From: an uncultured Candidatus Saccharibacteria bacterium
Lineage (GTDB): Bacteria > Patescibacteriota > Saccharimonadia > CAILAD01 > BJGX01
DNA length: 64,000 bases
Assembly (NCBI GenBank): GCA_964552475.1
Contig: CAZKFZ010000005.1
Location: 6,224 to 70,223, forward strand
Reading direction: 5' to 3'
The position numbers were made by a program, and so were the translations under genes. Positions 2,453 to 26,984 of this stretch are shown here, in pieces; position 1 is the stretch's first letter; each line of letters starts with the position of its first letter. The notes beneath the pieces were generated by a model, which made no database searches, was not told the DNA's origin, and saw only the letters and a list, made by a program, of their open reading frames with translations.

Positions 2453-3934
2453 TTACTCTTTAACTGGTAGAGTAAAATTAATTTGGCTTGGTACTTCGGC
2501 ATGAAAATTTGCCAACACACCTTTAATTTGACCAGACTGCCAAATAACTATTATTGAATAAAGACCCACCATAAATCCGGCAAAGCCAATAGCTACAAAT
2601 AAAGGCCAAAGACTAGCGGGTTTCTCGCGTTCCATATAGAGTAGCTCTTGGTTGTTAGTGGCCTTTGAGGCGACAAAATAGTACTGTCTAGCCCAGGTAT
2701 TTTGTTGGTAATATTGCATGGTTGTTAGTATTACTACAGTAAGAATGGCAACAACAATTAACACCAATATAGTAGGGCTATTAACATGAGTAATAAAAAA
2801 ATCAGTAATTTGCCAATCTATAAATAAAATTGTACTGTAACCCAAGAAAATACCACTAATAGCTAAGAGACCAGTGGTAAAATTTCTTAAAGGACTTAGT
2901 TGTAGTAGCTTAAGACTCTGTAGTTGCAGATGACTAGTTTTACTACTACGCGCTAAAAGTCCAACCTGTAGCCAGTGCTTACTATAAAGCAAAACCAGAA
3001 CCACCAACCATATTACGGCTAAAAACACTATCAACTGGTATTTACTTGTAATTACCCAATGATTTTCCGAGTTAAATATTGTTATAGCAACCCACATAGT
3101 AAAAGCAGTGACTAAACAAATAATAACCAAGTGCAAAAGGTAGTTAATAGCTTGTCGTAGCATAGAATGAACTGCCGAGCGTAAAGCTGTGGTAAGTTGT
3201 AGAGTTCGATTATCTATCTGCCTAAGTCTTATTGCTATGCCAGCGTTTGATATTATTGATCGAAATATCACACCAATAAAGAATAGTGCTAGGGCCACTC
3301 CCGTAGACCACGCAAGAGCTGAAAAGTGGTCTGGACTAACCACGCCCTTAGCTTTTTGCAATACTTCATTTGTTGTAAAATTCTGTAATATCCTTAGTTG
3401 TAAAAGTATTACCGGCAAGCTAAGTAGAAGCCAGGTCTGCGGACTTACAATAGTTCTTATCAGACTCATTTGCCATAAACTAAATAGTGGCGAGGGCCAT
3501 ATTGACTTTATCAAAACAAACTCTAAATAATCTTGCGATAGAGACGATTTTGAGGTCTTTTTAACAGGAGTATTAGTAATTGATTTGGTGGTCGGAGCTA
3601 TTAGTGATTTTTTAATGCGCTTAGTGTGAACTTTTATTTTTTTCTTTAACTTTTCTTTCGTTGTCTTAAGTTTCTCTAATTTAGTGTACTCACTATCCTC
3701 ATAAAATTCCCGTTCGTTTTGAAGACTGGTAAGCGAAAGTTGGGTCTGTCTCTTACTTATGGCAGATTGCGATGGGCTTACAATGTTTTCTGGGGTGCGA
3801 AGGTCTAGCACCTCGGGATGTTTTTGTTTTGGCGATAACTGTGAATTACTTCTTGAACGACCAACAACTTCGCCAGTGTTGGAGTCATAAGCAATACCAT
3901 CAATAATTATGTGTTTCGGTGGGGGTTTTTTCAT
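2453..3934 (-). CDS. Polytopic membrane protein of unknown function (about 10 predicted TM helices, ~190-aa Lys/Ser-rich cytoplasmic N-terminus); last gene of the crtI-crtE-crtB minus-strand operon
   Basis: Long ORF with many hydrophobic segments; 44 nt downstream of crtB on the same strand. I recognise no motif. Confidence 0.55.
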   Translation of the reverse strand: MKKPPPKHIIIDGIAYDSNTGEVVGRSRSNSQLSPKQKHPEVLDLRTPENIVSPSQSAISKRQTQLSLTSLQNEREFYEDSEYTKLEKLKTTKEKLKKKIKVHTKRIKKSLIAPTTKSITNTPVKKTSKSSLSQDYLEFVLIKSIWPSPLFSLWQMSLIRTIVSPQTWLLLSLPVILLQLRILQNFTTNEVLQKAKGVVSPDHFSALAWSTGVALALFFIGVIFRSIISNAGIAIRLRQIDNRTLQLTTALRSAVHSMLRQAINYLLHLVIICLVTAFTMWVAITIFNSENHWVITSKYQLIVFLAVIWLVVLVLLYSKHWLQVGLLARSSKTSHLQLQSLKLLQLSPLRNFTTGLLAISGIFLGYSTILFIDWQITDFFITHVNSPTILVLIVVAILTVVILTTMQYYQQNTWARQYYFVASKATNNQELLYMEREKPASLWPLFVAIGFAGFMVGLYSIIVIWQSGQIKGVLANFHAEVPSQINFTLPVKE

Positions 3935-3978: not shown

Positions 3979-4815
3979 CTATATATGAAGTAGTTTTTCA
4001 ACAAACACCACAAAATAAAGTAGTAACTTAGTGATATTAGTAACCCTTACTCGTTTCTCTCTTAATTCCTGAACACTAGTTTTTTGTATTTTCCTAAGTA
4101 GTAAACGATAGTACCAATAAGCCAGTAGAACTCCATATTTAGACGAATATGGGAGTTGGCTGATAGTGGACCTAGCAATCTTGAAATCATTGAGTATTTC
4201 TTGCTCAATTTGCTTTTTTTTATCATTTTGAAAATTATCTATATCGATATTCGGAAAGTAAACCCTACCCAATGCTTGGTTATCTTCATTTAGATCGCGT
4301 AAAAAGTTCACTTTTTGAAAAGCCGAACCCAAAGCTTTTGCACCATAGATAAGTTTTTTATATTTGGTCTTGCTACCCCCAAGAAAAACCATTAAACACA
4401 TCAGGCCAACAACTTCGGCAGAGCCATATATATAATCTTTATATTGTTTTTTTGTGTAAGAGTTTTTAGATATATCCATAGCCATACTACCTATGAAGGC
4501 CTGGATCAAACTAGAGTCTATTTGATATTTAATAACTGTTTGAGCGAAGGCGTGAATAACTGGATTTAAGCTAACACTCGACTTTACAGCCTGCGATGTC
4601 TCGGTGTTGAAATCTTTTAGCATGCGTAAACTATCTTTTGGCCGCAACGTATCCACTAACTCATCGGCAACCCTAACATAGCCGTATATGTTGTATATAT
4701 CTGTTCTTATAGGCTTGTCTAGCAACCTAATGGCCGCTGAAAATGATGTAGAATATTGCTTAGTGATAAAAGAGTTAATTACTTGCGAAACCTCGGTGTA
4801 TTGGTTTGGACTCAT
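3979..4815 (-). CDS. crtB: Phytoene synthase (squalene/phytoene synthase family)
   Basis: YSTSFSAAIRLL, YGYVRVADELVDT and YGSAEVVGLM correspond to conserved phytoene synthase motifs. Clustered with crtI and GGPP synthase. Confidence 0.85.
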   Translation of the reverse strand: MSPNQYTEVSQVINSFITKQYSTSFSAAIRLLDKPIRTDIYNIYGYVRVADELVDTLRPKDSLRMLKDFNTETSQAVKSSVSLNPVIHAFAQTVIKYQIDSSLIQAFIGSMAMDISKNSYTKKQYKDYIYGSAEVVGLMCLMVFLGGSKTKYKKLIYGAKALGSAFQKVNFLRDLNEDNQALGRVYFPNIDIDNFQNDKKKQIEQEILNDFKIARSTISQLPYSSKYGVLLAYWYYRLLLRKIQKTSVQELREKRVRVTNITKLLLYFVVFVEKLLHI

Positions 4816-4818
4816 TAG

Positions 4819-5895
4819 CTAACTACTCCTGGATACGCAATATTGCGCGAATTCGGCTAATATATGGGTTCTATTACTAGAGTTGGGTATCTTATTTGTT
4901 ATTTCGATAGCTGCATCCGCTAAATCTTGAGCCAACAATACAGTCTTCTGCCTGGCTCCAGATTCAATCAGTATATCTTGTACTTTTTTAACATCATTAG
5001 TGGTTAATTTAGGATTGTTAATGCAACTTTTCAAAAAATCTCTTTGAGATCCTTTTGTTAATTCAATACCATTATGTATAAGCACTGTTTGTTTTCCTTC
5101 TTTTATATCACTTCCTACAGGTTTACCAGTAAGCTTTGAGCTACCAAAGACTCCTAGATCATCATCGCTTAGTTGAAAAGCCACACCGGCATTGTTGCCA
5201 AAATTCGCGAATTGGGTATGCAATGTCGCTGGTCCATCTGCAAGTATCGCACCAAACTGTAAAGGCATTATTACTGTATAGTCTGCCGTTTTATATTGGT
5301 TTATCTTTTTAATATCACTTATAGTTAGGGATTTACTAACCGAACCAATTAGGTCAAGATGCTGACCAGCCGCTACGTCAAATGTTGCAGTGTTTAGCCT
5401 TGATATTGCCACTACTAATTGTTGAGGTTTCATACCCGACGCAATCAAAGATTCATAGCTTAAACCACAACAAATATCGCCTGCCAACATCGCTATAGAG
5501 TTCGCCACATGTTGAGCATCTATACTATTAAGTGTTTGGGAATACCTTTTTTTATAAACCCCAGTAACATTTAGCCCTCCGTGGCGCTTGTCGTCGTGAT
5601 CCATAATATCGTCATGCATAAGTAAATAATTGTGAAATATTTCTAATGATATTGCAGCTTTTAACATTTTATTTCTGTCGTTACCACCGGCAATTTCATA
5701 CCCCAACATTGCCAAGCATGGACGTAGTCGTTTGCCAGCACGCAAAGTTTGCTTTGCAATAACCTTAAGCAACTTTTGGTATTCGCCACCAATTTTAGAT
5801 GCATCAATAATTTTTTGATTCAAAAAATCGCTCAACAGAGCATCAATTTCTAGCTTCACCTTCGCAGCATATGATTTGAGATTTGTTTCAGTCAT
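4819..5895 (-). CDS. crtE: Polyprenyl (geranylgeranyl) diphosphate synthase
   Basis: First Asp-rich motif LLMHDDIMDHDDKRHG and second Asp-rich motif FQLSDDDLG are present. Sits between crtI and crtB with 3-nt gaps. Confidence 0.85.
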   Translation of the reverse strand: MTETNLKSYAAKVKLEIDALLSDFLNQKIIDASKIGGEYQKLLKVIAKQTLRAGKRLRPCLAMLGYEIAGGNDRNKMLKAAISLEIFHNYLLMHDDIMDHDDKRHGGLNVTGVYKKRYSQTLNSIDAQHVANSIAMLAGDICCGLSYESLIASGMKPQQLVVAISRLNTATFDVAAGQHLDLIGSVSKSLTISDIKKINQYKTADYTVIMPLQFGAILADGPATLHTQFANFGNNAGVAFQLSDDDLGVFGSSKLTGKPVGSDIKEGKQTVLIHNGIELTKGSQRDFLKSCINNPKLTTNDVKKVQDILIESGARQKTVLLAQDLADAAIEITNKIPNSSNRTHILAEFAQYCVSRSS

Positions 5896-5898
5896 AGG

Positions 5899-7404
5899 TT
5901 AATTTACTCCATTATCCTCGAGAATTCGCTCAACTACAAGTTTTGCAGATAATGTTACCATGGGAATACCGCCACCTGGATAAGTGCTGGCACCTACAAA
6001 GTATAGACCTTTTACGCTACGTTCAATATTGTGAGGCCTGAAATAACCAGACTGGAATAAGTGATGAGTTAGACCAAAAGCTGAGCCGGCAGTTAGGTTA
6101 AATTTAGTTTCAAAATCTTGGGGCGAAAATATCTTCTCTGTTTCAATATTTTTTTCTATGTCTTGGCCAAACTCACTATTTAGTCGCTTTATGACTTGGG
6201 TACGAATTTTTCCAATACCTTTGTCCCAGTTGTTTTCTCCTTGCAAGTTTGGAACAGGCACAAGTATATACATAACACTTCTGTTTTTTGGAGCAAGAGC
6301 AGGGTCGGTTTTGGTAGGAATGTAGGTGTAAAACGACGGATCACTAGGTAGTTTTTTGTTTTTTAATATTTCTTCGAGGTTGTTTTTAAAATCACTACAT
6401 AAATAAACGTTATGGTGCAACATACCGTCAAGCTGGTTATTAACGCCCCAATAGAATAAGAGCGCCGAACTGGCTTGTTTGAGATCTTCAGCTTTGCGAC
6501 CCAGGCTTTTTAGTTTTATAGGTGAGGATAGTAGATTTTTGTAAGCGTACACTAGGTCGGCATTGCAAACTACCAAATCCGCCTCTATAGCTTCTCCGCC
6601 CACAACAACCCCTTTGGCAATATTGTTTGTAATAGTAATTTGTGAGATAGGTGTATTGGTATATATTTTGCCACCCATACCTATTACGAGCTTCTCAAGC
6701 GCTTGACTTAAACTATACATACCACCTTTGGGGTACCAAATGCCGAGCCCAGTCTCCATATAGCTCAACACACTATAAACCGCCGGTGCCTCATATGGGC
6801 TCACGCCAAGATACATGCTCTGAAAACTAAATAGTTGGCGTAGTCTGTCGTCATTAAAATAACGACTCACAAACTTCCAAAGACTTATGAGCCCTCGTTT
6901 TTGTAGTAATTTAAGTCCAGAGCGAAAATTAATAAAATCTGTTAAACTGTCAAAGTTTTTATCTATAAAACCGCCGCGCGACAGCCTATATATCTCGGCC
7001 ACATCGGCAAAAAAACTATAAAATTGTTCAGGGGCCTTGGGGTCAAATTTGGCAAGCTCGCCTGTAAACTTTGGTAAGTTACTACTGACTGTAATACGTG
7101 ACCCATCGGCAAAGGCTACTTGATAATTGGGCTCGAGCTGAATAAGCTCAATATAGTCATTAAAGTCTTTACCACAATATGCAAAAGTGTCATAGAGTAC
7201 ATCGGTCATCATTAGTAGTGTTGGGCCGGTATCAAAAGTGTAGCCGTCTTGTTTTATTCGGTTGGCCCGCCCACCAACTAACGGCTCTTTCTCGTAAATA
7301 GATACTTGATAACCTTCTTTGAGTAGCCTGGCTGCCGTGCACATACCGCCTATGCCAGCACCTACTATTATTGCAGTTTTATTCTTTTTCATAGTGATTA
7401 TCAT
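5899..7404 (-). CDS. crtI: Phytoene desaturase, CrtI family FAD-dependent oxidoreductase
   Basis: N-terminal Rossmann motif AIIVGAGIGGMCTAARL...EKEPLVGGRA; ~500 aa; C-terminal GGGIPMV motif typical of CrtI. Confidence 0.85.
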   Translation of the reverse strand: MIITMKKNKTAIIVGAGIGGMCTAARLLKEGYQVSIYEKEPLVGGRANRIKQDGYTFDTGPTLLMMTDVLYDTFAYCGKDFNDYIELIQLEPNYQVAFADGSRITVSSNLPKFTGELAKFDPKAPEQFYSFFADVAEIYRLSRGGFIDKNFDSLTDFINFRSGLKLLQKRGLISLWKFVSRYFNDDRLRQLFSFQSMYLGVSPYEAPAVYSVLSYMETGLGIWYPKGGMYSLSQALEKLVIGMGGKIYTNTPISQITITNNIAKGVVVGGEAIEADLVVCNADLVYAYKNLLSSPIKLKSLGRKAEDLKQASSALLFYWGVNNQLDGMLHHNVYLCSDFKNNLEEILKNKKLPSDPSFYTYIPTKTDPALAPKNRSVMYILVPVPNLQGENNWDKGIGKIRTQVIKRLNSEFGQDIEKNIETEKIFSPQDFETKFNLTAGSAFGLTHHLFQSGYFRPHNIERSVKGLYFVGASTYPGGGIPMVTLSAKLVVERILEDNGVN

Positions 7405-7497
7405 ACCATATCAGCTCTATACTTATGGTAGACCTGTGTCTGGGTTGGGTGTACAATATTCACGTAAATTATTCGCACCCTTTGATTGGAGAGATTA

Positions 7498-8022
7498 ATG
7501 GAAACTTCAGTATCCGCTAGTGAGCTGATAGAAGAAGTGGAAGCACTGGTAATGAGTCATTGTAAAGCAGGTCAGACGAGAACTAAGCAGGGTCGAAAAG
7601 ATACCGTTGCCATTGCTAAGTTAATGTTAGAACAGACTGCCAAACCAGCTCGTCTGAGCAGGCAAGTACTATTCGGGCGATTAGATGATGTGCAAACTTT
7701 TTTGGGTTATTTGGTTTACTGGGCACCAGGGCTTGTTATATTCGAGCCGGCGCCTGAGTATATCGACTACTTTGGCATCGTCCGAGCTGAAAAAGTTGCA
7801 GGCAACACAATTGATGAAATACATATCGATAGCCTCTTTGATGAACCCGATCGAAGTCATAGCCACAAAATACTGATCAAATTCAGATATGATGGGTATG
7901 GTACTTATGCAGATATCTTCCCCACCATCGGAGGCGTCAATATGGGCGGCCATCGTATGTTTCCGCAGCACGCCTATACCATGCTTAACTGGCTAACAAT
8001 CATGCTTGGCCTCAATCTATAA
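7498..8022 (+). CDS. Hypothetical protein (~175 aa), first gene of the plus-strand carotenoid operon; locally higher GC (~47%) than its neighbours
   Basis: ORF with GGAGAG RBS 6 nt upstream of ATG 7498 (the ORF track starts at an upstream TTG at 7486). I recognise no motif and it has no Nudix box. Confidence 0.5.
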   Translation: METSVSASELIEEVEALVMSHCKAGQTRTKQGRKDTVAIAKLMLEQTAKPARLSRQVLFGRLDDVQTFLGYLVYWAPGLVIFEPAPEYIDYFGIVRAEKVAGNTIDEIHIDSLFDEPDRSHSHKILIKFRYDGYGTYADIFPTIGGVNMGGHRMFPQHAYTMLNWLTIMLGLNL

Positions 8023-8074
8023 CATATGCCCTCTCATATCATGAGAGGGTTTTTATTTGGAGTATAATAAAGAG

Positions 8075-8500
8075 ATGATTATGCGACTTATGTATACCCA
8101 CTACTTCTATGTTATTATTTTGATACTCAGTATTGGAGGTTTGCTTCTAGCCGACCGACGACTAAGACTGGCTTTTTGGCACAACAAAATTGCAAGTACA
8201 AAAGCAGTTGGCTATACCATGCTACTACTACTAATATTTGATGTTGCCGGGGTAATAAATAAAATATTCTCAACTAATCAAGATTATGTAGTGAGAATAA
8301 ATATTATTTCACCCAATATACCTATTGAAGAAATAATATTTTTGTTTATGCTATGCTATGTGACGCTGATTTTGTATCAATTAGTTGGAAGGCTAGAAGT
8401 ATTGAAACAAGTTGGGGCTAATAAGGGGCGAAAAAATGACAAGCTAGATCAGCCCCAAGCTACACTTAATGTGAGATCCAGGAAAAAAAATCATGACTAG
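8075..8500 (+). CDS. Lycopene cyclase domain protein, subunit 1 of a heterodimeric carotenoid cyclase (CrtYe/CrtYc-like)
   Basis: Small hydrophobic protein with the conserved hPhEE motif (NIPIEEIIFLF). The ORF track starts at 8057; ATG at 8075 is the more likely start. Adjacent to a second cyclase-domain gene and a UbiA elongase. Confidence 0.65.
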   Translation: MIMRLMYTHYFYVIILILSIGGLLLADRRLRLAFWHNKIASTKAVGYTMLLLLIFDVAGVINKIFSTNQDYVVRINIISPNIPIEEIIFLFMLCYVTLILYQLVGRLEVLKQVGANKGRKNDKLDQPQATLNVRSRKKNHD

Positions 8501-8786
8501 CTACTTAGTACTGGTAACTAGCTTGGTAGTAGTATCAGTCTTAATACTGGTGCGTTTGCGCATTACCCCACCAAAACCCAAAGTTTTGATGGTAGTAGGG
8601 CTAATTCTACTCATTGCTATGTTGGTATTTGACAACTACCTCACTACTCTGCCTATTGTGATGTATAATAATAGTTCTATATTAGGTTATAAAGTTGGCA
8701 ATATACCTATAGAAGATTTTGGCTACCTAGTTGCTGTAATACTACTGGTGCCCGCTTTGTTTGAATATTTTAAGAGCAATAAATAA
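8493..8786 (+). CDS. Lycopene cyclase domain protein, subunit 2 (CrtYf/CrtYd-like)
   Basis: 97 aa with 3 TM segments and motif NIPIEDFGYLV (the PxE(E/D) motif of lycopene cyclase domain proteins). Overlaps the upstream gene by 8 nt, which suggests translational coupling. Confidence 0.65.
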   Translation: MTSYLVLVTSLVVVSVLILVRLRITPPKPKVLMVVGLILLIAMLVFDNYLTTLPIVMYNNSSILGYKVGNIPIEDFGYLVAVILLVPALFEYFKSNK

Positions 8787-8787
8787 T

Positions 8788-10797
8788 ATGCCCAAAACAG
8801 ATAACAAACTCACTATCAAAGAAGTTTTGGCGACCAGTCGCCCAGTAAGTTGGATAAACACTGCTTTTCCTTTTTTGGTAGGATATTTGCTTGCTGCTCA
8901 AAGACTAAGTTTGCCTGGCTTAATAGGGTTTGGATATTTTCTGTTTTCTTACAATTTAATGCTTTATGGCGTAAACGATATATATGATTACGAATCAGAT
9001 ATTAAAAACCCTCGAAAGAATTCCATAGAAGGAGGTTTGCTTCTTAAGCAAAAGCACCGGAACCTATGGATAGCAATTGCAGTTATTAATTTACCTTTTG
9101 TGGTGTATTTTTTAGCTACCGGAACTACCACATCAAAGATACTATTTGTACTTATTATATTCTTTGCTTTCAGTTATAGCGCCAAGCCACTTCGTTTTAA
9201 AGAAGTTCCTTTTTTAGATTCAATAAACTCAGCATTACACTTTGTTTTGCCCTTTGTTTTCGGTCTTGCATATATGCAAAGTAATAACTACTATTGGCCA
9301 GCTGTAATTGCATTTTTAGCTTGGGGCATGGCGAGTCAAGCTTTTGGTGCAATACAAGATATTAAGCCAGATAGAGCCGCTAATATTAAATCAATTGCTA
9401 CAGTTATGGGTGCTAAGCGTACCAACATATTCGTCATTACACTCTACTTATTGTGTTGTGTACTGATTGCAGTGTTATACTTTCCGCTTGGCCTACTAGC
9501 TAGCGTGTTTTTGGGAATGTACGTCTTAAACGCTAGTTTTTTTATTAAATACAAATCCGATGCAAGATCATCACAATTTCATAGAGGTTGGCAAAATTTT
9601 ATGTGGCTTAATATGATAGTAGGGTTTTTTATTACCCAAATATTATTGTTTGCATTCGATCCGTTCGGTGTTAGGGAATATTTCATTGCATTAACTGGTT
9701 TTTTTCTATTAGTATTTTTCTTGATCCAACTTGGTTTAATAATATATAACCTAAGGGCTTTTGCTAGACCAAAGACAAAACGACTAAATGATTGGCCAAA
9801 AATTAGTATAATTATGCATGCTTATAATCAGGGTGATAATATATCTTCTACGCTCCTTTCACTTTTAGGTCAGCAATATCCTCAGTTCGAAATACTTTTT
9901 ACCGATCTAGGTTCGCAAGACAACACTCTAAGTATAGCCAAAGGATTTCAAGACCCAAGACTAAAGATAATAGAAACGAAACCACTTAAACCAAATTGGA
10001 CTCTTAACTCTTGGGTGTCTCAACAGTTGCTAGAAAAGTCGACAGGTGAAATAGTTTTGTTACTAAGTGCTGATACTATTCTATTGCCTAACGCTCTATC
10101 GGTAATGGCTAGTCTTATAGAGCAAGAAAAGTTAAGTTTAGTTTCGATATTACCATCAGACCAAAATAAAAGTTTTGCTCAACAAATTATACTGAGTCAA
10201 AACCATTACTTTATGCTTGGTCTATACCCTTCCGCTTATTTAGCAAAGGCTCACCCCAGGTCGGTTAATGCTAGTAGTAATATAACCGCCTTTGTGCGAT
10301 CGAGCGTATTAGCCCTTGGCGGTTTTGAACTTGTAAGAAAAAGTCCTTTGGAAGATTTCGACCTTGCGGCCGCCGCTAAGACAAGAGGTTTGAAAACTGG
10401 GTTCTATCTAGGATCAGACATGGCAATGAGCCAAAACCATGCTAGTTTAAGACTTATTGTGGCGCAAAACTTAAGACGTTTTTACCCAGCACTACACTTT
10501 TCTATGCCCTTAACAATCGCCTTAGTTTTATTTGGGTTGTTTGTCTTGGTCTTCCCAACTCTACTAATAAGCTACTTATTGCTATTTAATATTTACATAG
10601 GCTTATGGTTCTTAGCCTTGGCAATTGGACTTAGTTATATTAACCGATTAATTATTACTATAATTTCTCGTCAGAGTATTGTGTCTACGTTACTGTATCC
10701 TATTGGTTGCCTATGTTCATTTTATTTACTTGTTTACTCAATGATAAACTATGAAGTATTGAAGCCTAGGTGGCAAAATCGTAAAGAAGTGTTTTAG
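8788..10797 (+). CDS. Fusion protein. The N-terminal ~290 aa is a UbiA-family prenyltransferase (lycopene elongase CrtEb-like) and the C-terminal ~330 aa is a GT2 glycosyltransferase (CrtX/CrtQ-like) with a C-terminal TM anchor
   Basis: UbiA motifs NDIYDYESD (NDxxDxxxD) and QDIKPD (DxxxD) are present. The GT2 signature is ISIIMHAYNQGDNISSTLLSLLGQQYPQFEILFTDLGSQDNT, followed by hydrophobic C-terminal helices. The ORF track starts at 8761; ATG 8788 is the likely start. Confidence 0.7.
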   Translation: MPKTDNKLTIKEVLATSRPVSWINTAFPFLVGYLLAAQRLSLPGLIGFGYFLFSYNLMLYGVNDIYDYESDIKNPRKNSIEGGLLLKQKHRNLWIAIAVINLPFVVYFLATGTTTSKILFVLIIFFAFSYSAKPLRFKEVPFLDSINSALHFVLPFVFGLAYMQSNNYYWPAVIAFLAWGMASQAFGAIQDIKPDRAANIKSIATVMGAKRTNIFVITLYLLCCVLIAVLYFPLGLLASVFLGMYVLNASFFIKYKSDARSSQFHRGWQNFMWLNMIVGFFITQILLFAFDPFGVREYFIALTGFFLLVFFLIQLGLIIYNLRAFARPKTKRLNDWPKISIIMHAYNQGDNISSTLLSLLGQQYPQFEILFTDLGSQDNTLSIAKGFQDPRLKIIETKPLKPNWTLNSWVSQQLLEKSTGEIVLLLSADTILLPNALSVMASLIEQEKLSLVSILPSDQNKSFAQQIILSQNHYFMLGLYPSAYLAKAHPRSVNASSNITAFVRSSVLALGGFELVRKSPLEDFDLAAAAKTRGLKTGFYLGSDMAMSQNHASLRLIVAQNLRRFYPALHFSMPLTIALVLFGLFVLVFPTLLISYLLLFNIYIGLWFLALAIGLSYINRLIITIISRQSIVSTLLYPIGCLCSFYLLVYSMINYEVLKPRWQNRKEVF

Positions 10798-10821: not shown

Positions 10822-11577
10822 TTATTTAATTGATTCCTTCAGGGTAGTTTGAGCTTTCTGTATTGCAGAATTAAACTCTTCAATCATTTTAGATATCGTA
10901 CTTTGTCGCACATGTTGTGCAGTTTTAGTTGTAGAGACAATACTAGATTCTCCAAACGTGATAGATTGAATTATGTTTCGTGCATTTTGTAGATCGCTTT
11001 TTAACTCTTTACGTACGGCCGTGCCATTATTTCCTGCGTCACAACTTGATTGAGCCTTGACTAGTGAGGTAGAAACATAATTCTTATAAGCTGAAATAGC
11101 TAAGTCTATATTACTGTTGCGCTCAGAAATTATACCTATAACATCGTCATTGTAAGTATCGACAGCCTTGTCGACAGACGAGCGACGCTCGGCGATAGCC
11201 ATCTCTACACTGGTTTTAAAAACATTAATGGCTTGTTGTTGAGTATCTGTTTGAGACTTTTCGAGTAGTTTTGTATAGTGCTCCTGCCTATTACTGTCCC
11301 ACTTAGCTTGTATACTTGATATATCTTTGTCGCGTTTTGAAAAGATCTCGTTAAGTTCTTCTTTTTTAGCAACTCTGGTGTTATTTATACTAGTTATCTT
11401 TTGATCAATCTGACTATTTAGTCTTGAAGATATAGAGCTGAGTTGATTACAGAAAATATCATCAGTACCCTGTTGTGCCAAAGTAATTTGTGGACTAAAA
11501 ATACTGACAATAAATGTTAAAAATAACATAGTGGTAGATATAATAATTATAGGATTATGTTTATAGACTTGGGTCAT
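10822..11577 (-). CDS. Secreted or membrane-anchored coiled-coil protein of unknown function (signal peptide, cleavage near TLA-QQ)
   Basis: N-terminal hydrophobic segment followed by a Gln/Ser/Lys-rich helical region. Its start overlaps the stop of the upstream anti-sigma candidate by 17 nt. Confidence 0.5.
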   Translation of the reverse strand: MTQVYKHNPIIIISTTMLFLTFIVSIFSPQITLAQQGTDDIFCNQLSSISSRLNSQIDQKITSINNTRVAKKEELNEIFSKRDKDISSIQAKWDSNRQEHYTKLLEKSQTDTQQQAINVFKTSVEMAIAERRSSVDKAVDTYNDDVIGIISERNSNIDLAISAYKNYVSTSLVKAQSSCDAGNNGTAVRKELKSDLQNARNIIQSITFGESSIVSTTKTAQHVRQSTISKMIEEFNSAIQKAQTTLKESIK

Positions 11578-12034
11578 TGCTAATATCTCCTAATTGCTTG
11601 ATTTCGTTAGACACCTCTTGCACTACATTCTCTCCCTTAGTCATGGCTTGGTCGTTAATACTACTCTCATCGGCCAAGTCAGCACTAATGGAGTTGAAAG
11701 TATTCTCGATAGTACCATCTGGAGCAGATTGGCTTAGTTTGTTGGTGTTATTGTTATTGATATTGGAGTTATTATTCTTAAAGAAAAACACACCACCAAA
11801 TATCACTACCAACATAATAGTTGCAATAGGTATATATAACCTTAGTTGATTAAGTATTGGGTTATTTTTTGTTTCTGGTATTACACTTCTTGGGCTATTA
11901 TTTTCTTTATCTATTCTCTGAAGAGTATTATTAAGAAGGTGTCTCTTGTTAAATGAAAAGCCTTTCAACTCTTTTAGTTTCTTGGCATACTCTTCAGGAC
12001 TATTATTGCTCTTATTGTTATACATTTTATTCAT
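11561..12034 (-). CDS. Candidate anti-sigma factor. Single-pass membrane protein with a cytoplasmic N-terminus, one TM and an Asn-rich extracytoplasmic domain
   Basis: Immediately downstream of the ECF sigma gene and overlapping it. Topology is typical of ECF anti-sigma factors. The ORF track starts at 12100; MNKMYNN at 12034 is the likely start. Confidence 0.45.
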   Translation of the reverse strand: MNKMYNNKSNNSPEEYAKKLKELKGFSFNKRHLLNNTLQRIDKENNSPRSVIPETKNNPILNQLRLYIPIATIMLVVIFGGVFFFKNNNSNINNNNTNKLSQSAPDGTIENTFNSISADLADESSINDQAMTKGENVVQEVSNEIKQLGDISNDPSL

Positions 12035-12608
12035 TTTCTTGTTTAGAAACTTCTGATAGTGCCATTGTGGCTCTAGATAGTAACTTGCGGGTAGCAACAT
12101 CGCTTTTTCCGATTATCATAGCTATTTCTGCGCTAGATAAATTCTCCATATAACGAAGAATTAGGGCTTCTTGGTAGTTATTGGGTAATTTTTTTAAATT
12201 ACGATAAAGTTGTTTTATTTCTTCGGAATTTATAACGTCATCCTGAGGGTTTTGTGACTTATCTTCAAGAAGCAAAAGCACTTCTTCAGAGTTTTGTATT
12301 TTTGTTGCTTTTCTGCCTTTACTGCGATAAAAATCGACAATTACGCTTCGGGCAATACTAAATATATAGGCAGATGGCTGGTAGCCTTTATCTTGCCAAT
12401 TATGCAAATTTCTATAAAACTTAATAAAAACCTGCTGGGTAAGGTCGTCGGTCTCTTCGCTGTCACCCACCCTAATAAGAATATATCTATAAATAGGTGA
12501 AAAATACTCTTCATACAATTGTTCAAAAGCCGCCTCGTCACCACTTCTTGCTTTGGCAACTAGTGGTACAAAGTTATCGGGTTGTTCTTGGGGGTTTTGT
12601 GTAGTCAT
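12027..12608 (-). CDS. ECF-type (sigma-70 family group 4) RNA polymerase sigma factor
   Basis: A region 2 motif and a region 4 HTH-type segment (sequences in the ECF-module finding); 193 aa. Confidence 0.8.
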   Translation of the reverse strand: MTTQNPQEQPDNFVPLVAKARSGDEAAFEQLYEEYFSPIYRYILIRVGDSEETDDLTQQVFIKFYRNLHNWQDKGYQPSAYIFSIARSVIVDFYRSKGRKATKIQNSEEVLLLLEDKSQNPQDDVINSEEIKQLYRNLKKLPNNYQEALILRYMENLSSAEIAMIIGKSDVATRKLLSRATMALSEVSKQENE

Positions 12609-23415: not shown

Positions 23416-24273
23416 TTATAAATGGTGTTTGTTAGTAGCAACTCTTGCTAAAGCCAAAAGCGCAATCGTGCCAAGACCAAATAGCGCAATAAGCGACATT
23501 GGCTCGGTAATAGTAGTAGGCTTTGCAGTTAGTAAAGGACTTAAGACTACAGATACTACAGGTATTATAAACAACACAATTGGCTCTGTTAGAAACCTTC
23601 GGCTTGGCAGTGCACTTAGGTTGGGTGATTTAGTAATATAGCCAAGTATTAGCGATATGATTAAAAACAATACTACAGTCTCCCCTAACCAACCAGTAAA
23701 GTTCTGGTATGGCACACCAAAAAATATTCCACCTTGGGTCCATATATATATCTTATCGACAGTTGAGTTAATGGGGTCATTGGCCAGATCGGATAGTGTC
23801 ATAAGCATACCGCTTAGCAAGCTTAGTATTACTATTTCTAAGCCCTTTACCAACTTGAGCCACCCCAATATTATTCTAATTACTAGATAACTACTATAGG
23901 CTAAACTAAAGTATGTGAGCATTAAAAGAACCGGTACGCCACCTAGCAAAGGACCATTGCCTATTAGATTGTAGTAGTACGAACCAAAAATGTGGCCGGT
24001 ATTGACACCCAAGTACTCGGCTATAAAAGTAACAATGTAAGTAACCACAAAAAATATGAGTATATTTTTACCCCCCAAATACCTAGCGCCATGCAAGAAC
24101 ACAAAGATTGCCGGCAACAAGTAGATTATTAGGGCAAGTGGGCCAGCAATAGTTGGTAGCAGAGCGGTAATTAATAGTGTTACTAATATTACCCAGCGCA
24201 GTGGCGCAAATTTATCGTGCTGCTTAGGGCGCTTTGATGTCGCTTGTGCTTTCATTTGTTTAAATTGTAGCAC
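23416..24273 (-). CDS. 8-TM integral membrane protein of unknown function
   Basis: 285 aa, many hydrophobic helices; no CxxC pairs, so it is not a PilD prepilin peptidase. Confidence 0.5.
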   Translation of the reverse strand: MLQFKQMKAQATSKRPKQHDKFAPLRWVILVTLLITALLPTIAGPLALIIYLLPAIFVFLHGARYLGGKNILIFFVVTYIVTFIAEYLGVNTGHIFGSYYYNLIGNGPLLGGVPVLLMLTYFSLAYSSYLVIRIILGWLKLVKGLEIVILSLLSGMLMTLSDLANDPINSTVDKIYIWTQGGIFFGVPYQNFTGWLGETVVLFLIISLILGYITKSPNLSALPSRRFLTEPIVLFIIPVVSVVLSPLLTAKPTTITEPMSLIALFGLGTIALLALARVATNKHHL

Positions 24274-24338: not shown

Positions 24339-24414
24339 GGCAGGGGTGGCAGGAGTCGAACCCGCGGCCTTTGGTTTTGGAGACCAACGCTCTAGCCAAC
24401 TGAGCTACACCCCT
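24339..24414 (-). tRNA. tRNA-Trp (anticodon CCA), CCA end encoded
   Basis: The reverse complement gives AGGGGTG TA GCTC AGTTGGCTA GAGC G TTGGT CTCCAAA ACCAA ... GCGGG TTCGACT CCTGC CACCCCT G CCA. This is a full cloverleaf with the anticodon loop CT-CCA-AA. Confidence 0.85.
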
Positions 24415-26726: not shown

Positions 26727-26813
26727 GTGGTGCCGGGTGAGAGATTCGAACTCCCGAAGGCACAAGGCCGTCAGATTTACAGTCTGATGCGTTTAACCAC
26801 TTCGCTAACCCGG
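26727..26813 (-). tRNA. tRNA-Tyr (anticodon GTA), class II with a long variable arm, CCA encoded
   Basis: The reverse complement gives GCCGGGT TA GCGA AGTGGTTAAA CGC A TCAGA CTGTAAA TCTGA CGGCCTTGTGCCTTCG GGGAG TTCGAAT CTCTC ACCCGGC A CCA. Confidence 0.85.
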
Positions 26814-26831
26814 CATAAAATATAAAGTTAC

Positions 26832-26906
26832 TGGAGCCTCGAGCGAGGATTGAACTCGCGACCTCTTCCTTACCATGGAAGCGCTCTACCACTGAGCTAT
26901 CGAGGC
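26832..26906 (-). tRNA. tRNA-Thr (anticodon GGT)
   Basis: The reverse complement gives GCCTCGA TA GCTC AGTGGTA GAGC G CTTCC ATGGTAA GGAAG AGGTC GCGAG TTCAATC CTCGC TCGAGGC T CCA. Confidence 0.8.
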
Positions 26907-26907
26907 C

Positions 26908-26984
26908 TGGAGCCGATGGAGGGATTCGAACCCACGACCTGCTGTTTACAAAACAGCTGCTCTAACCAACTGAGCTACATCGGC
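26908..26984 (-). tRNA. tRNA-Thr (anticodon TGT)
   Basis: The reverse complement gives GCCGATG TA GCTC AGTTGGTTA GAGC A GCTGT TTTGTAA ACAGC AGGTC GTGGG TTCGAAT CCCTC CATCGGC T CCA. Confidence 0.8.

What the first reader, a model, noticed from the sequence alone, without database searches (positions are those of the whole stretch)
8788..10797. Single-polypeptide fusion of lycopene-elongase-like UbiA prenyltransferase and GT2 glycosyltransferase
The N-terminal half carries both UbiA Asp-rich motifs, NDIYDYESD and QDIKPD, across about 8 TM helices. The C-terminal half has a classical GT2 fold start (ISIIMHAYNQ...FEILFTDLGSQDNT) followed by further TM helices, as in the staphylococcal CrtQ-type carotenoid glycosyltransferase. 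Elongation and glycosylation are separate enzymes in the characterised C50 pathways. A fused enzyme would couple two late steps at the membrane and may not have been described. The fusion is continuous in one frame with no internal stop, so it is not an ORF-calling artefact, barring a sequencing frameshift.
Basis: partly seen in the sequence, partly recalled or inferred. Interest (0 to 1): 0.75.

Follow-up and report, generated by a model that had tools for sequence, protein, structure and literature searches.

The report
Fused C50 carotenoid elongase–glycosyltransferase
A Saccharibacteria pigment gene cluster encodes one membrane protein joining a lycopene-lengthening enzyme to a carotenoid-type sugar transferase; the fusion is real and recurs in two phyla, but no paper found here describes it.

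Summary
Window 8788..10797 (+) is one uninterrupted 669-aa ORF. Residues 1-290 are a UbiA prenyltransferase that passes the curated cut-off of the same NCBIfam model as actinobacterial C50 lycopene elongases, at 42-47% identity to them. One extra membrane helix links it to a membrane GT2 glycosyltransferase. That half's nearest standalone relatives are HpnB/CruG-like proteins that JGI names chlorobactene glucosyltransferase (CruC).

It is not a frameshift artefact. The identical protein occurs in independent assemblies, and more than 100 homolog clusters (30-95% identity) keep the single ORF. These come from Candidatus Saccharibacteria and, as a separate clade, Chloroflexota.

The gene ends an operon of two lycopene-cyclase half-domain genes and diverges from crtI-crtE-crtB. 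That layout is conserved.

Loop charges and a confident AlphaFold model put both active sites on the cytoplasmic side.

The most likely function is a bifunctional enzyme that makes a glycosylated C50 carotenoid. Whether the product is cyclic or bacterioruberin-like is unresolved, and so is the sugar.

The sequences are public under generic names. I found no paper describing the fusion. I rate it a new variant of a known kind, of moderate interest.

The parts
8788..10797 (+). Fused ORF, 669 aa: CrtEb-type lycopene elongase (UbiA) + linker helix + CruC-like GT2 glycosyltransferase
8788..9657 (+). UbiA prenyltransferase half (residues 1-290, 9 membrane helices)
8974..9000 (+). UbiA Asp-rich motif 1, NDIYDYESD (residues 63-71), at the cytoplasmic end of helix 2
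   Evidence: Conserved in 17 of 18 aligned family members.
9355..9372 (+). UbiA Asp-rich motif 2, QDIKPD (residues 190-195), at the cytoplasmic end of helix 6
   Evidence: Conserved in 17 of 18.
9673..9759 (+). Linker membrane helix (residues 296-324), followed by the positively charged stretch FARPKTKRLNDWPK. It returns the chain to the cytoplasm and corresponds to the N-terminal helix of standalone CruC-like GT2s.
   Evidence: AF2 helix. K+R counts. Standalone GT2 alignments begin at about residue 32-45. Ceramide glucosyltransferase chains align from profile position 302.
9796..10482 (+). GT-A catalytic domain of the GT2 half (residues 337-565). Includes DLGSxD (373-378), the invariant D429 (nt 10072-10074), the acidic position 525 and the RRF(Y) motif near 558-560.
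10504..10758 (+). Three C-terminal membrane helices of the GT2 half (residues 573-657)
   Evidence: AF2 secondary structure. This region aligns with standalone CruC-like proteins to their C-termini.
8057..8500 (+). Lycopene-cyclase half-domain gene A (CrtYe-like). The likely start is ATG 8075 or 8081. A promoter-like site lies at 8041-8068, after a terminator-like hairpin at 8028-8050.
   Evidence: TIGR03462 E 1.1e-11..
8493..8786 (+). Lycopene-cyclase half-domain gene B (CrtYf-like). It overlaps gene A by 8 nt and ends 1 nt before the fused ORF.
   Evidence: PF18916 E 1.8e-14, TIGR03462 E 9.9e-15.
5899..7404 (-). CrtI-family phytoene desaturase, transcribed divergently
   Evidence: TIGR02734 481 bits, above the 238 cut-off.
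4819..5895 (-). Polyprenyl (GGPP-type) diphosphate synthase, CrtE-like
   Evidence: PF00348 E 2.5e-47.
3979..4815 (-). Phytoene/squalene synthase family, CrtB-like
   Evidence: PF00494 E 3.4e-42.
23416..24273 (-). Distal CruF-type carotenoid 1,2-hydratase homolog. It may belong to the same pathway.
   Evidence: PF04240 E 3.2e-28. NCBIfam CruF models all score below their cut-offs.

Best explanation
The gene encodes a bifunctional integral-membrane enzyme of a Candidatus Saccharibacteria C50-carotenoid pathway.

Proposed pathway:
1. CrtE, CrtB and CrtI make lycopene.
2. The N-terminal UbiA half is a CrtEb-type lycopene elongase. It adds C5 prenyl units to C-2 and C-2' of lycopene and so creates hydroxylated C45/C50 end groups.
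3. The two co-transcribed half-cyclases probably close C50 rings.
4. The C-terminal CruC-like GT2 half transfers a hexose from a nucleotide sugar onto the newly made carotenoid hydroxyl(s). The product is a C50 carotenoid mono- or diglycoside.

How the fusion is built: the UbiA half has nine helices, so its C-terminus lies outside the cell. The single N-terminal helix of the GT2 module brings the chain back in. Both active sites therefore sit on the cytoplasmic face of one polypeptide.

Shown here: the domain identities, the conserved motifs, the topology logic, the conserved cluster context, and recurrence of the fusion in two phyla.

Inferred, not shown: the actual substrates, the order of the steps, the sugar donor, the ring type, and any substrate channelling.
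For: - Domain assignment comes from Pfam and NCBIfam. The N-terminal half passes the curated cut-off of NF009608.
- Actinobacterial elongase orthologs score 412-463 bits on that same model. The half is 42-47% identical to them.
- Both Asp-rich motifs are conserved in 17 of 18 family members.
- In an exhaustive search of 1.84 billion representatives, the GT2 half's top 9 hits are full-length or end-truncated copies of the fusion itself. Scores then fall to 360-400 aa standalone proteins at 25-31% identity.
- Those standalone proteins best match HpnB and CruG. Three carry the JGI name 'chlorobactene glucosyltransferase'.
- The PDB profile search aligns ceramide glucosyltransferase, a lipid-hydroxyl GT2, across the linker helix and GT-A domain.
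- A related GT2 is fused to a CruF carotenoid hydratase (P0329). So this GT2 group has been joined more than once to enzymes that create carotenoid hydroxyls.
- Seven of 8 Saccharibacteria fused loci (one of them, L001, identical in sequence to the window) keep the layout crtB-crtE-crtI divergent from cycA-cycB-fusion. Chloroflexota loci keep half-cyclase-fusion-crtI-crtB.
- The fused clades of the two phyla are each monophyletic (92-100% bootstrap) but are not sisters in either half's tree. That suggests the fusion arose twice.
- Cytoplasmic loops carry 4, 3, 3, 3, 2 and 5 Lys+Arg. Outer loops carry 1, 0, 0, 0 and 0.
- Both halves are conserved within the Saccharibacteria clade: mean identity 56% for UbiA and 43% for GT2.
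Against: - There is no biochemical evidence for either activity.
- The GT2 half scores far below the curated cut-offs of HpnB (98 against 379 bits) and CruG (61 against 600 bits). It sits on a long branch.
- In Saccharibacteria the canonical DDGS and DxD motifs are reduced to DLGS and [S/A]AD. Chloroflexota keep DDGS and DAD. Donor binding may therefore differ.
- The catalytic-base and RW motifs are only loosely conserved in some members.
- A CruF-type hydratase lies 13 kb away, so the product could be an acyclic bacterioruberin-like glycoside rather than a cyclic one.
- The source of IPP/DMAPP in this reduced-genome lineage was not examined.
- The trees are rough neighbour-joining trees, and their deep nodes are unsupported.
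Confidence: 0.7

Rival explanations
1. The fused enzyme is the same, but the pathway is acyclic and bacterioruberin-like. The UbiA half works as a Lye-type elongase/1,2-hydratase. The CrtI-family enzyme also supplies 3,4-desaturation, and the distal CruF hydrates the side chains. The GT2 half then glycosylates tertiary hydroxyls, as CruC does on 1'-hydroxychlorobactene, to give bacterioruberin glycosides. This is a variant of the best explanation: it differs in the product, not in what the fusion does.
For: - A CruF-type gene lies at 23416..24273.
- The CrtI-family protein gives a strong but sub-threshold match to the bifunctional CrtI/D model (398.6 bits, cut-off 640).
- PMC9948471 interprets lyeJ/crtD/cruF in Saccharibacteria as a bacterioruberin pathway, with cruF far from the other two genes.
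- The nearest standalone relatives of the GT2 half carry the name of CruC, which on my recollection of the CruC literature glycosylates a tertiary 1'-hydroxyl (name).
- Bacterioruberin glycosides are known in Arthrobacter (PMC9122864).
Against: - Two lycopene-cyclase half-domain genes are translationally coupled directly upstream of the fused gene. They are conserved in 7 of 8 Saccharibacteria fused loci and in most of the 61 actinobacterial loci (cycA in 53, cycB in 37).
- The N-terminal half matches the actinobacterial model NF009608 above its cut-off. It stays below the cut-off of NF009516/PRK12875 (154.9 against 205 bits).
- No cruF lies within 6 kb of the fused gene in any fetched locus.
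- The window's CruF homolog scores below all curated CruF cut-offs.
Confidence: 0.2
2. The GT2 half does not act on carotenoids. It glycosylates another membrane lipid, such as a polyprenyl phosphate, a glycerolipid or a hopanoid-like lipid, and the fusion only shares a membrane anchor or co-expression.
For: - The best NCBIfam match is HpnB, a hopene-associated GT2 of unproven function, and it scores below the cut-off.
- The structural neighbours are generic membrane GT2s: PcManGT, hyaluronan synthase and cellulose synthase.
- In P0081 both UbiA motifs are degenerate but the GT2 half is intact. So the GT2 half can persist without an active elongase.
Against: - In the exhaustive search the closest relatives of the GT2 half are all copies of the fusion; nothing close stands alone.
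- The fused gene sits in carotenoid clusters in two phyla.
- Its nearest standalone relatives carry a carotenoid glycosyltransferase name.
- A sister GT2 is fused to a CruF carotenoid hydratase.
- Polyprenyl-phosphate GT2s (ArnC, GtrB, DPMS) are much weaker matches.
Confidence: 0.08
3. The single ORF is an artefact (a sequencing or assembly frameshift), or the GT2 half is a decaying, inactive remnant.
For: The DxD motif is reduced to [S/A]AD, and the GT2 half evolves faster than the UbiA half.
Against: - The identical protein occurs in independent assemblies.
- More than 100 homolog clusters down to 30% identity keep one ORF of about 670 aa.
- D429 is invariant, and the GT2 half keeps 43% mean identity across the clade with no truncations.
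- The AF2 confidence is high throughout the GT2 half.
Confidence: 0.02

Closest known systems
CrtEb / CrtE2 / LbtC lycopene elongases of Actinomycetota (C. glutamicum, M. luteus, Dietzia sp. CQ4)
   Same: They share the UbiA fold and both Asp-rich motifs. They hit the same NCBIfam equivalog NF009608 above its cut-off. Identity is 42-47%. The cluster partners are the same: two half-cyclases plus crtE, crtB and crtI.
   Different: The actinobacterial enzymes are standalone proteins of about 280-295 aa. Here the enzyme carries a C-terminal linker helix and a 345-aa GT2 module. The host is a low-GC (~39%) Saccharibacteria genome rather than a high-GC actinobacterium.
LbtBC of Dietzia sp. CQ4 (natural fusion of a C50 cyclase subunit with the lycopene elongase)
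   Same: It is a precedent for fusing the elongase to a pathway neighbour (PMC6669644). Cyclase-half + UbiA fusions also turned up here (P0188, P0236), and P0120 has cyclase-half + UbiA + GT2.
   Different: In LbtBC the fusion partner is N-terminal and is a cyclase subunit. It is not a C-terminal glycosyltransferase.
CruC (chlorobactene glucosyltransferase), CruG (myxol 2'-O-glycosyltransferase) and HpnB-type membrane GT2s
   Same: The architecture is the same: an N-terminal helix, a GT-A domain and C-terminal helices. These are the best NCBIfam matches. They are also the nearest standalone relatives, at 25-31% identity over the full length.
   Different: The window's GT2 half scores far below their curated cut-offs and forms its own long-branch clade. 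Its DDGS and DxD motifs are altered, and among its close relatives it is found only fused to the elongase.
Actinobacterial CrtX (C. glutamicum cg0730; M. luteus and Dietzia crtX), the C50 carotenoid glycosyltransferase
   Same: It has the same proposed pathway role, glycosylation of C50 carotenoid hydroxyls (PMC5401885, PMC6669644).
   Different: It is a separate gene. No homolog of the window's GT2 half lies within 6 kb of the actinobacterial crtEb genes examined. A CruC-like query gave only short N-terminal GT2 matches in some of those loci. I could not obtain a CrtX sequence to compare directly.
Lye/LyeJ of haloarchaea (bifunctional lycopene elongase and 1,2-hydratase)
   Same: It is also a UbiA-family C5 elongase of lycopene that creates a hydroxyl.
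   Different: The window protein scores below the cut-offs of the other two UbiA models, NF009516 and NF010119. I believe one of these represents the haloarchaeal type, but that was not verified. Lye works with CrtD and CruF, not with half-cyclases, and carries no GT2 domain.

Membership tests
UbiA prenyltransferase superfamily | Pfam PF01040 match above the gathering score | tested here: met
   95.7 bits against a cut-off of 34.2, residues 26-273.
UbiA prenyltransferase superfamily | Two Asp-rich motifs (NDxxDxxxD and DxxxD) on cytoplasmic loops 2-3 and 6-7 | tested here: met
   NDIYDYESD at 63-71 and QDIKPD at 190-195. Both are conserved in 17 of 18 relatives, and both lie in K/R-rich loops.
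UbiA prenyltransferase superfamily | The 8-9 helix UbiA fold | tested here: met
CrtEb-type C50 lycopene elongase (NCBIfam NF009608 / PRK13105) | Score above the curated equivalog cut-off, on the model that recognises actinobacterial elongase orthologs | tested here: met
   317.9 bits against a cut-off of 217. Orthologs from Dietzia, Kocuria, Glutamicibacter, Microbacterium, Arthrobacter and Leifsonia score 412-463 bits.
CrtEb-type C50 lycopene elongase (NCBIfam NF009608 / PRK13105) | Clustered with two C50-cyclase half-domain genes and with crtE, crtB and crtI | tested here: met
   Window genes at 3979..8786. The layout is conserved in 7 of 8 Saccharibacteria fused loci and in most of the 61 actinobacterial loci.
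CrtEb-type C50 lycopene elongase (NCBIfam NF009608 / PRK13105) | Converts lycopene to a C45/C50 hydroxylated carotenoid | not testable with these tools
   Needs heterologous expression in a lycopene background.
GT2 glycosyltransferases (GT-A fold) | Pfam PF00535 / PF13641 above the gathering scores, and a GT-A fold | tested here: met
GT2 glycosyltransferases (GT-A fold) | Nucleotide-binding Asp (DDGS-type) and the metal-binding DxD motif | tested here: inconclusive
   The window has DLGSQD and SAD. D429 is invariant in all 18 sequences, but the first Asp of DxD is S, A, P or Q in Saccharibacteria. Chloroflexota fusions keep DDGS and DAD.
GT2 glycosyltransferases (GT-A fold) | Catalytic-base acidic residue (the 'ED' motif) and a (Q/R)xxRW-like motif | tested here: inconclusive
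   Position 525 is Asp or Glu in all 18 sequences. The motif is QNLRRF in the window and weaker (QQAY) in P0095 and P0096.
CruC / CruG / HpnB carotenoid- and hopanoid-associated membrane GT2s | Score above the curated NCBIfam cut-offs | tested here: not met
   HpnB 98.2 bits against 379, CruG 60.8 against 600, HpnI 34.9 against 310. So it is not a member of any of these equivalogs.
CruC / CruG / HpnB carotenoid- and hopanoid-associated membrane GT2s | Same architecture, and these are the nearest standalone relatives | tested here: met
   Standalone hits of 360-400 aa align over query residues of about 10-345 at 25-31% identity. Their best families are HpnB and CruG. JGI names three of them 'chlorobactene glucosyltransferase'.
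CrtQ (staphyloxanthin pathway GT2) | Sequence similarity to S. aureus CrtQ | not tested
   No CrtQ sequence or model appeared in any search, and none was available to compare.
Actinobacterial CrtX (C50 carotenoid glycosyltransferase) | Sequence similarity to cg0730 or to M. luteus CrtX | not tested
   No reference sequence was available. Indirectly, there is no tblastn hit of the GT2 half (E <= 1e-3) within 6 kb of any actinobacterial crtEb examined.

The most novel reading that the evidence does not exclude
The elongase-GT2 fusion arose independently in Saccharibacteria and in Chloroflexota. It is the core of a membrane metabolon, with the two half-cyclases, that channels lycopene straight to a glycosylated C50 carotenoid. 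The glycosyltransferase lineage is unrelated to actinobacterial CrtX. On this reading, genome-reduced, host-dependent Saccharibacteria keep a complete pathway of their own for glyco-C50 membrane lipids, perhaps under control of the adjacent ECF sigma factor. The product could be a carotenoid glycoside not yet described, for example a glycosylated acyclic intermediate or one with an unusual sugar, given the altered donor-binding motifs.
Probability: 0.2. Interest if true: 0.65.

Novelty: new variant of a known kind. Interest (0 to 1): 0.45.

Why it matters
- It is a candidate single-gene part that performs two late steps of glycosylated C50 carotenoid synthesis. That could be useful for engineering water-dispersible C50 pigments.
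- It points to a C50 carotenoid glycosyltransferase lineage (CruC-like GT2) that is unrelated, at the sensitivity used here, to anything next to actinobacterial crtEb genes.
- Recurrence of the fusion in two phyla, probably by independent events, is 'Rosetta-stone' evidence. It links this otherwise unannotated GT2 clade to carotenoid hydroxyls.
- It refines an earlier report of 'bacterioruberin genes' in Patescibacteria (PMC9948471). At least this lineage has half-cyclases and a built-in glycosyltransferase.
- That bears on what membrane lipids episymbiotic Saccharibacteria can make for themselves.

Tried and rejected
- **Frameshift or assembly artefact.** Rejected. The identical protein is in independent assemblies, and more than 100 homolog clusters keep a single ORF.
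- **A 'split' form, with a separate homolog of the GT2 half next to a standalone crtEb.** Searched by tblastn in 83 loci and none found. The closest standalone elongases (P0121 and P0123, 50-54% identity) sit in the same cluster layout with no GT2 at all.
- **Word-indexed protein search with the GT2 half alone.** It returned only truncated fusions and weak N-terminal GT2 matches. The exhaustive search was needed to find the CruC-like relatives.
- **AFDB fold search.** The library was not available.
- **The M. luteus crtX paper (PMC2953688).** Not held in the library, so the GT family of actinobacterial CrtX could not be checked.
- **Biopython bootstrap.** It timed out and was replaced by a numpy neighbour-joining bootstrap. 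These trees are rough and their deep nodes are unsupported, so the claim of two independent fusions is tentative.
- **Polysaccharide-synthase or polyprenyl-phosphate GT2 identity for the C-terminal half.** Considered and rejected as the weaker match.
Full report
**Observation**

Window 8788..10797 (+) is a single ORF of 669 codons with no internal stop. Its ATG lies 1 nt after the stop of the upstream gene. Pfam finds UbiA at residues 26-273 (E 3.5e-27). It finds GT2 families at 337-612: PF00535 (E 4e-16), PF13641, PF13632 and PF13506.

**Not an artefact**

The identical protein is encoded on an independent Logan contig (L001) and on an NCBI contig of 89.5 kb. A search of 5.8 billion proteins returned 157 relatives. 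More than 100 of the 120 listed have the same ~670-aa UbiA+GT2 architecture, at identities from 95% down to about 30%. Where sources give names, they are 'prenyltransferase [Candidatus Saccharibacteria bacterium]' and, for the distant set, Chloroflexota or Limnocylindrales.

Among GTDB species representatives, full-length fusions were found only in Saccharibacteria (L004-L010) and Chloroflexota (L011, L015, L048, L055). The window itself is chromosomal and low-GC (about 39%). It carries L11/L1/NusG, rpoB-sized and rpoC-sized ORFs, EF-Tu-sized and EF-G-sized ORFs, and type IV pilus genes.

**What each half is**

The N-terminal half passes the curated cut-off of NCBIfam NF009608/PRK13105 (317.9 bits against 217). 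I tested what that model stands for. The elongase orthologs in the C50 clusters of Dietzia, Kocuria, Glutamicibacter, Microbacterium, Arthrobacter and Leifsonia score 412-463 bits on it. They are 42-47% identical to the window's N-terminal half.

The C-terminal half behaves differently. In an exhaustive HMMER scan of 1.84 billion representatives, its top nine hits are full-length or end-truncated copies of the fusion. Scores then drop from 189 to 138 bits, to standalone GT2 proteins of 360-400 aa at 25-31% identity that align end to end. Those standalone proteins best match the HpnB and CruG models. Three carry the JGI name 'chlorobactene glucosyltransferase', which is CruC.

The window's GT2 half itself is far below the HpnB and CruG cut-offs. 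It works like these enzymes but is not a member of their equivalogs. A PDB profile search aligns ceramide glucosyltransferase, a lipid-hydroxyl GT2, from the linker helix through the GT-A domain.

**Context**

The fused gene is the last gene of an operon. A terminator-like hairpin lies at 8028-8050 and a promoter-like site at 8041-8068. Two lycopene-cyclase half-domain genes follow, at 8057..8500 and 8493..8786, overlapping by 8 nt. The fused ORF starts 1 nt after the second one ends. CrtI-family, polyprenyl synthase and phytoene synthase genes are transcribed divergently at 3979..7404.

Seven of eight Saccharibacteria fused loci keep this layout; one of the eight, L001, is identical in sequence to the window. 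Chloroflexota loci keep half-cyclase(s)-fusion-crtI-crtB, and one protein there (P0120) adds a cyclase half at the N-terminus. The closest standalone elongases (P0121 and P0123, 331 aa, 50-54% identity) sit in the same cluster layout with no GT2 anywhere nearby. The GT2 is therefore an add-on module. No separate homolog of the GT2 half lies within 6 kb of any standalone crtEb in the 83 loci.

**Topology and mechanism**

I used the AF2 helices to define the loops. The loops predicted to be cytoplasmic carry 4, 3, 3, 3, 2 and 5 Lys+Arg. The outer loops carry 1, 0, 0, 0 and 0. Both Asp-rich motifs lie in cytoplasmic loops. The nine-helix UbiA half ends outside the cell, and the linker helix brings the chain back in, so the GT-A domain is cytoplasmic too. 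The linker corresponds to the N-terminal helix of standalone CruC-like enzymes. The fusion is thus a simple head-to-tail join that needs no change in topology.

The inferred chemistry is as follows. CrtE, CrtB and CrtI make lycopene. The UbiA half adds C5 units and generates hydroxylated C45/C50 end groups. The half-cyclases probably cyclise them. The GT2 half then transfers a sugar to the hydroxyl(s). One consequence is that the fused activities may not be consecutive steps.

**Conservation and caveats**

The UbiA motifs are conserved in 17 of 18 aligned members. P0081 has lost both but keeps its GT2 half. In the GT2 half, D429 is invariant and position 525 is always Asp or Glu. The Saccharibacteria clade has DLGS where the canonical motif is DDGS, and [S/A]AD where it is DxD. 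The Chloroflexota fusions keep the canonical motifs. Mean identity within the Saccharibacteria clade is 56% for the UbiA half and 43% for the GT2 half.

**One fusion or two**

In neighbour-joining trees of each half, the Saccharibacteria fusions form one clade (92% and 100% bootstrap). The Chloroflexota fusions form another (100% bootstrap in the GT2 tree) that nests among standalone CruC-like proteins in the GT2 tree. The two clades are not sisters in either tree. The Chloroflexota GT2 halves are 33-41% identical to standalone CruC-like proteins, but only 24-28% identical to the Saccharibacteria GT2 half. This favours two independent fusions. The trees are rough, however, and the Saccharibacteria branch is long.

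A related GT2 fused to a CruF carotenoid hydratase (P0329) adds to the picture. So do the cyclase-elongase fusions (P0188, P0236; Dietzia LbtBC in PMC6669644). Together they show that enzymes of this pathway are fused repeatedly.

**Which product**

A CruF-type hydratase homolog lies 13 kb away at 23416..24273. That matches the arrangement reported for a Baikal Saccharibacteria genome, which was interpreted as a bacterioruberin pathway (PMC9948471). That paper's main text mentions neither the half-cyclases nor a glycosyltransferase domain.

I favour a cyclic C50 glycoside. The half-cyclases are translationally coupled to the fused gene and conserved with it, and no cruF lies near the fused gene in the other loci. 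An acyclic bacterioruberin-like glycoside remains a live alternative, at about 0.2.

**Comparison with what is known, and novelty**

In C. glutamicum, the elongase (crtEb, cg0717) and the C50 glycosyltransferase (crtX, cg0730) are separate genes (PMC5401885). Eight full-text literature searches found no description of an elongase-glycosyltransferase fusion. The sequences are already public under generic names, including a JGI name that lists both domains.

This is a new variant of a known kind: two known enzyme families, joined, in a known type of pathway. It is of moderate interest as a possible engineering part, as a functional annotation for an unnamed GT2 clade, and as evidence about lipid biosynthesis in Saccharibacteria.

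Noticed in passing
window 23416..24273 (-): A CruF-type carotenoid 1,2-hydratase homolog (PF04240, E 3.2e-28). It scores below all curated CruF cut-offs. It lies 13 kb from the crt cluster, beside a tRNA gene at 24341..24414. No such gene lies within 6 kb of the fused gene in the other loci.
   Followed up: partly
window 10822..12608 (-): An ECF sigma factor (12027..12608) and two small ORFs with no family match (11561..12034 and 10822..11577) lie immediately downstream of the fused gene, convergent with it. The sigma factor, the 251-aa ORF or both recur next to the fused gene in L004, L005, L008 and L009. They may be a sigma/anti-sigma pair that regulates carotenogenesis.
   Followed up: partly
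window 2453..3934 (-): A 493-aa multi-helix membrane protein with a Lys-rich N-terminus and no Pfam or NCBIfam match. It is the last gene after crtB. Weak homologs (24-27% identity) turn up in three other fused loci, in the equivalent position after crtB in L005 and L006. In C. glutamicum an MMPL transporter gene (cg0722) is interposed between crtB (cg0721) and crtE (cg0723).
   Followed up: no
window 7486..8022 (+): A 178-aa ORF of unknown function lies between crtI and the cyclase-fusion operon and is followed by a terminator-like hairpin at 8028-8050. Only a weak, partial match was seen, in L004.
   Followed up: no
P0081 (661 aa; NCBI name 'glycosyltransferase [Candidatus Saccharibacteria bacterium]'): A member of the fused family in which both UbiA Asp-rich motifs are degenerate (GPGGDPSDE and IRGIKSNR) while the GT2 motifs are intact. 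The elongase half may have been kept only as a scaffold.
   Followed up: no
P0329 (601 aa) and P0400 (607 aa), from the exhaustive GT2 search: Other fusions of CruC-like GT2s. P0329 is GT2 + a C-terminal CruF hydratase domain (PF04240). P0400 is GT2 + a methyltransferase domain.
   Followed up: partly
L002 12549..13151 and L003 7413..7964 (Chloroflexota loci): A PlsY-like acyltransferase gene (PF02660) directly follows crtB in both Chloroflexota fused clusters. It might acylate the carotenoid glycoside.
   Followed up: no
L003 2938..5163 (P0120, 741 aa); also P0188 and P0236: P0120 is a triple fusion of a cyclase half, UbiA and GT2. P0188 and P0236 are fusions of a cyclase half and UbiA, like Dietzia LbtBC.
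   Followed up: partly
loci L012-L014, L028-L030, L039, L074, L084-L086: Other Saccharibacteria carry an unfused elongase. Their crtI is only 33-34% identical to the window's, against 62-75% among the fused-type loci (L028 gave only a partial match at 43%). So there are at least two distinct crt cluster lineages within the phylum.
   Followed up: partly
window 26731..26984 (-) and 24341..24414 (-): Four tRNA genes, three of them in a tight array at 26731-26984.
   Followed up: no
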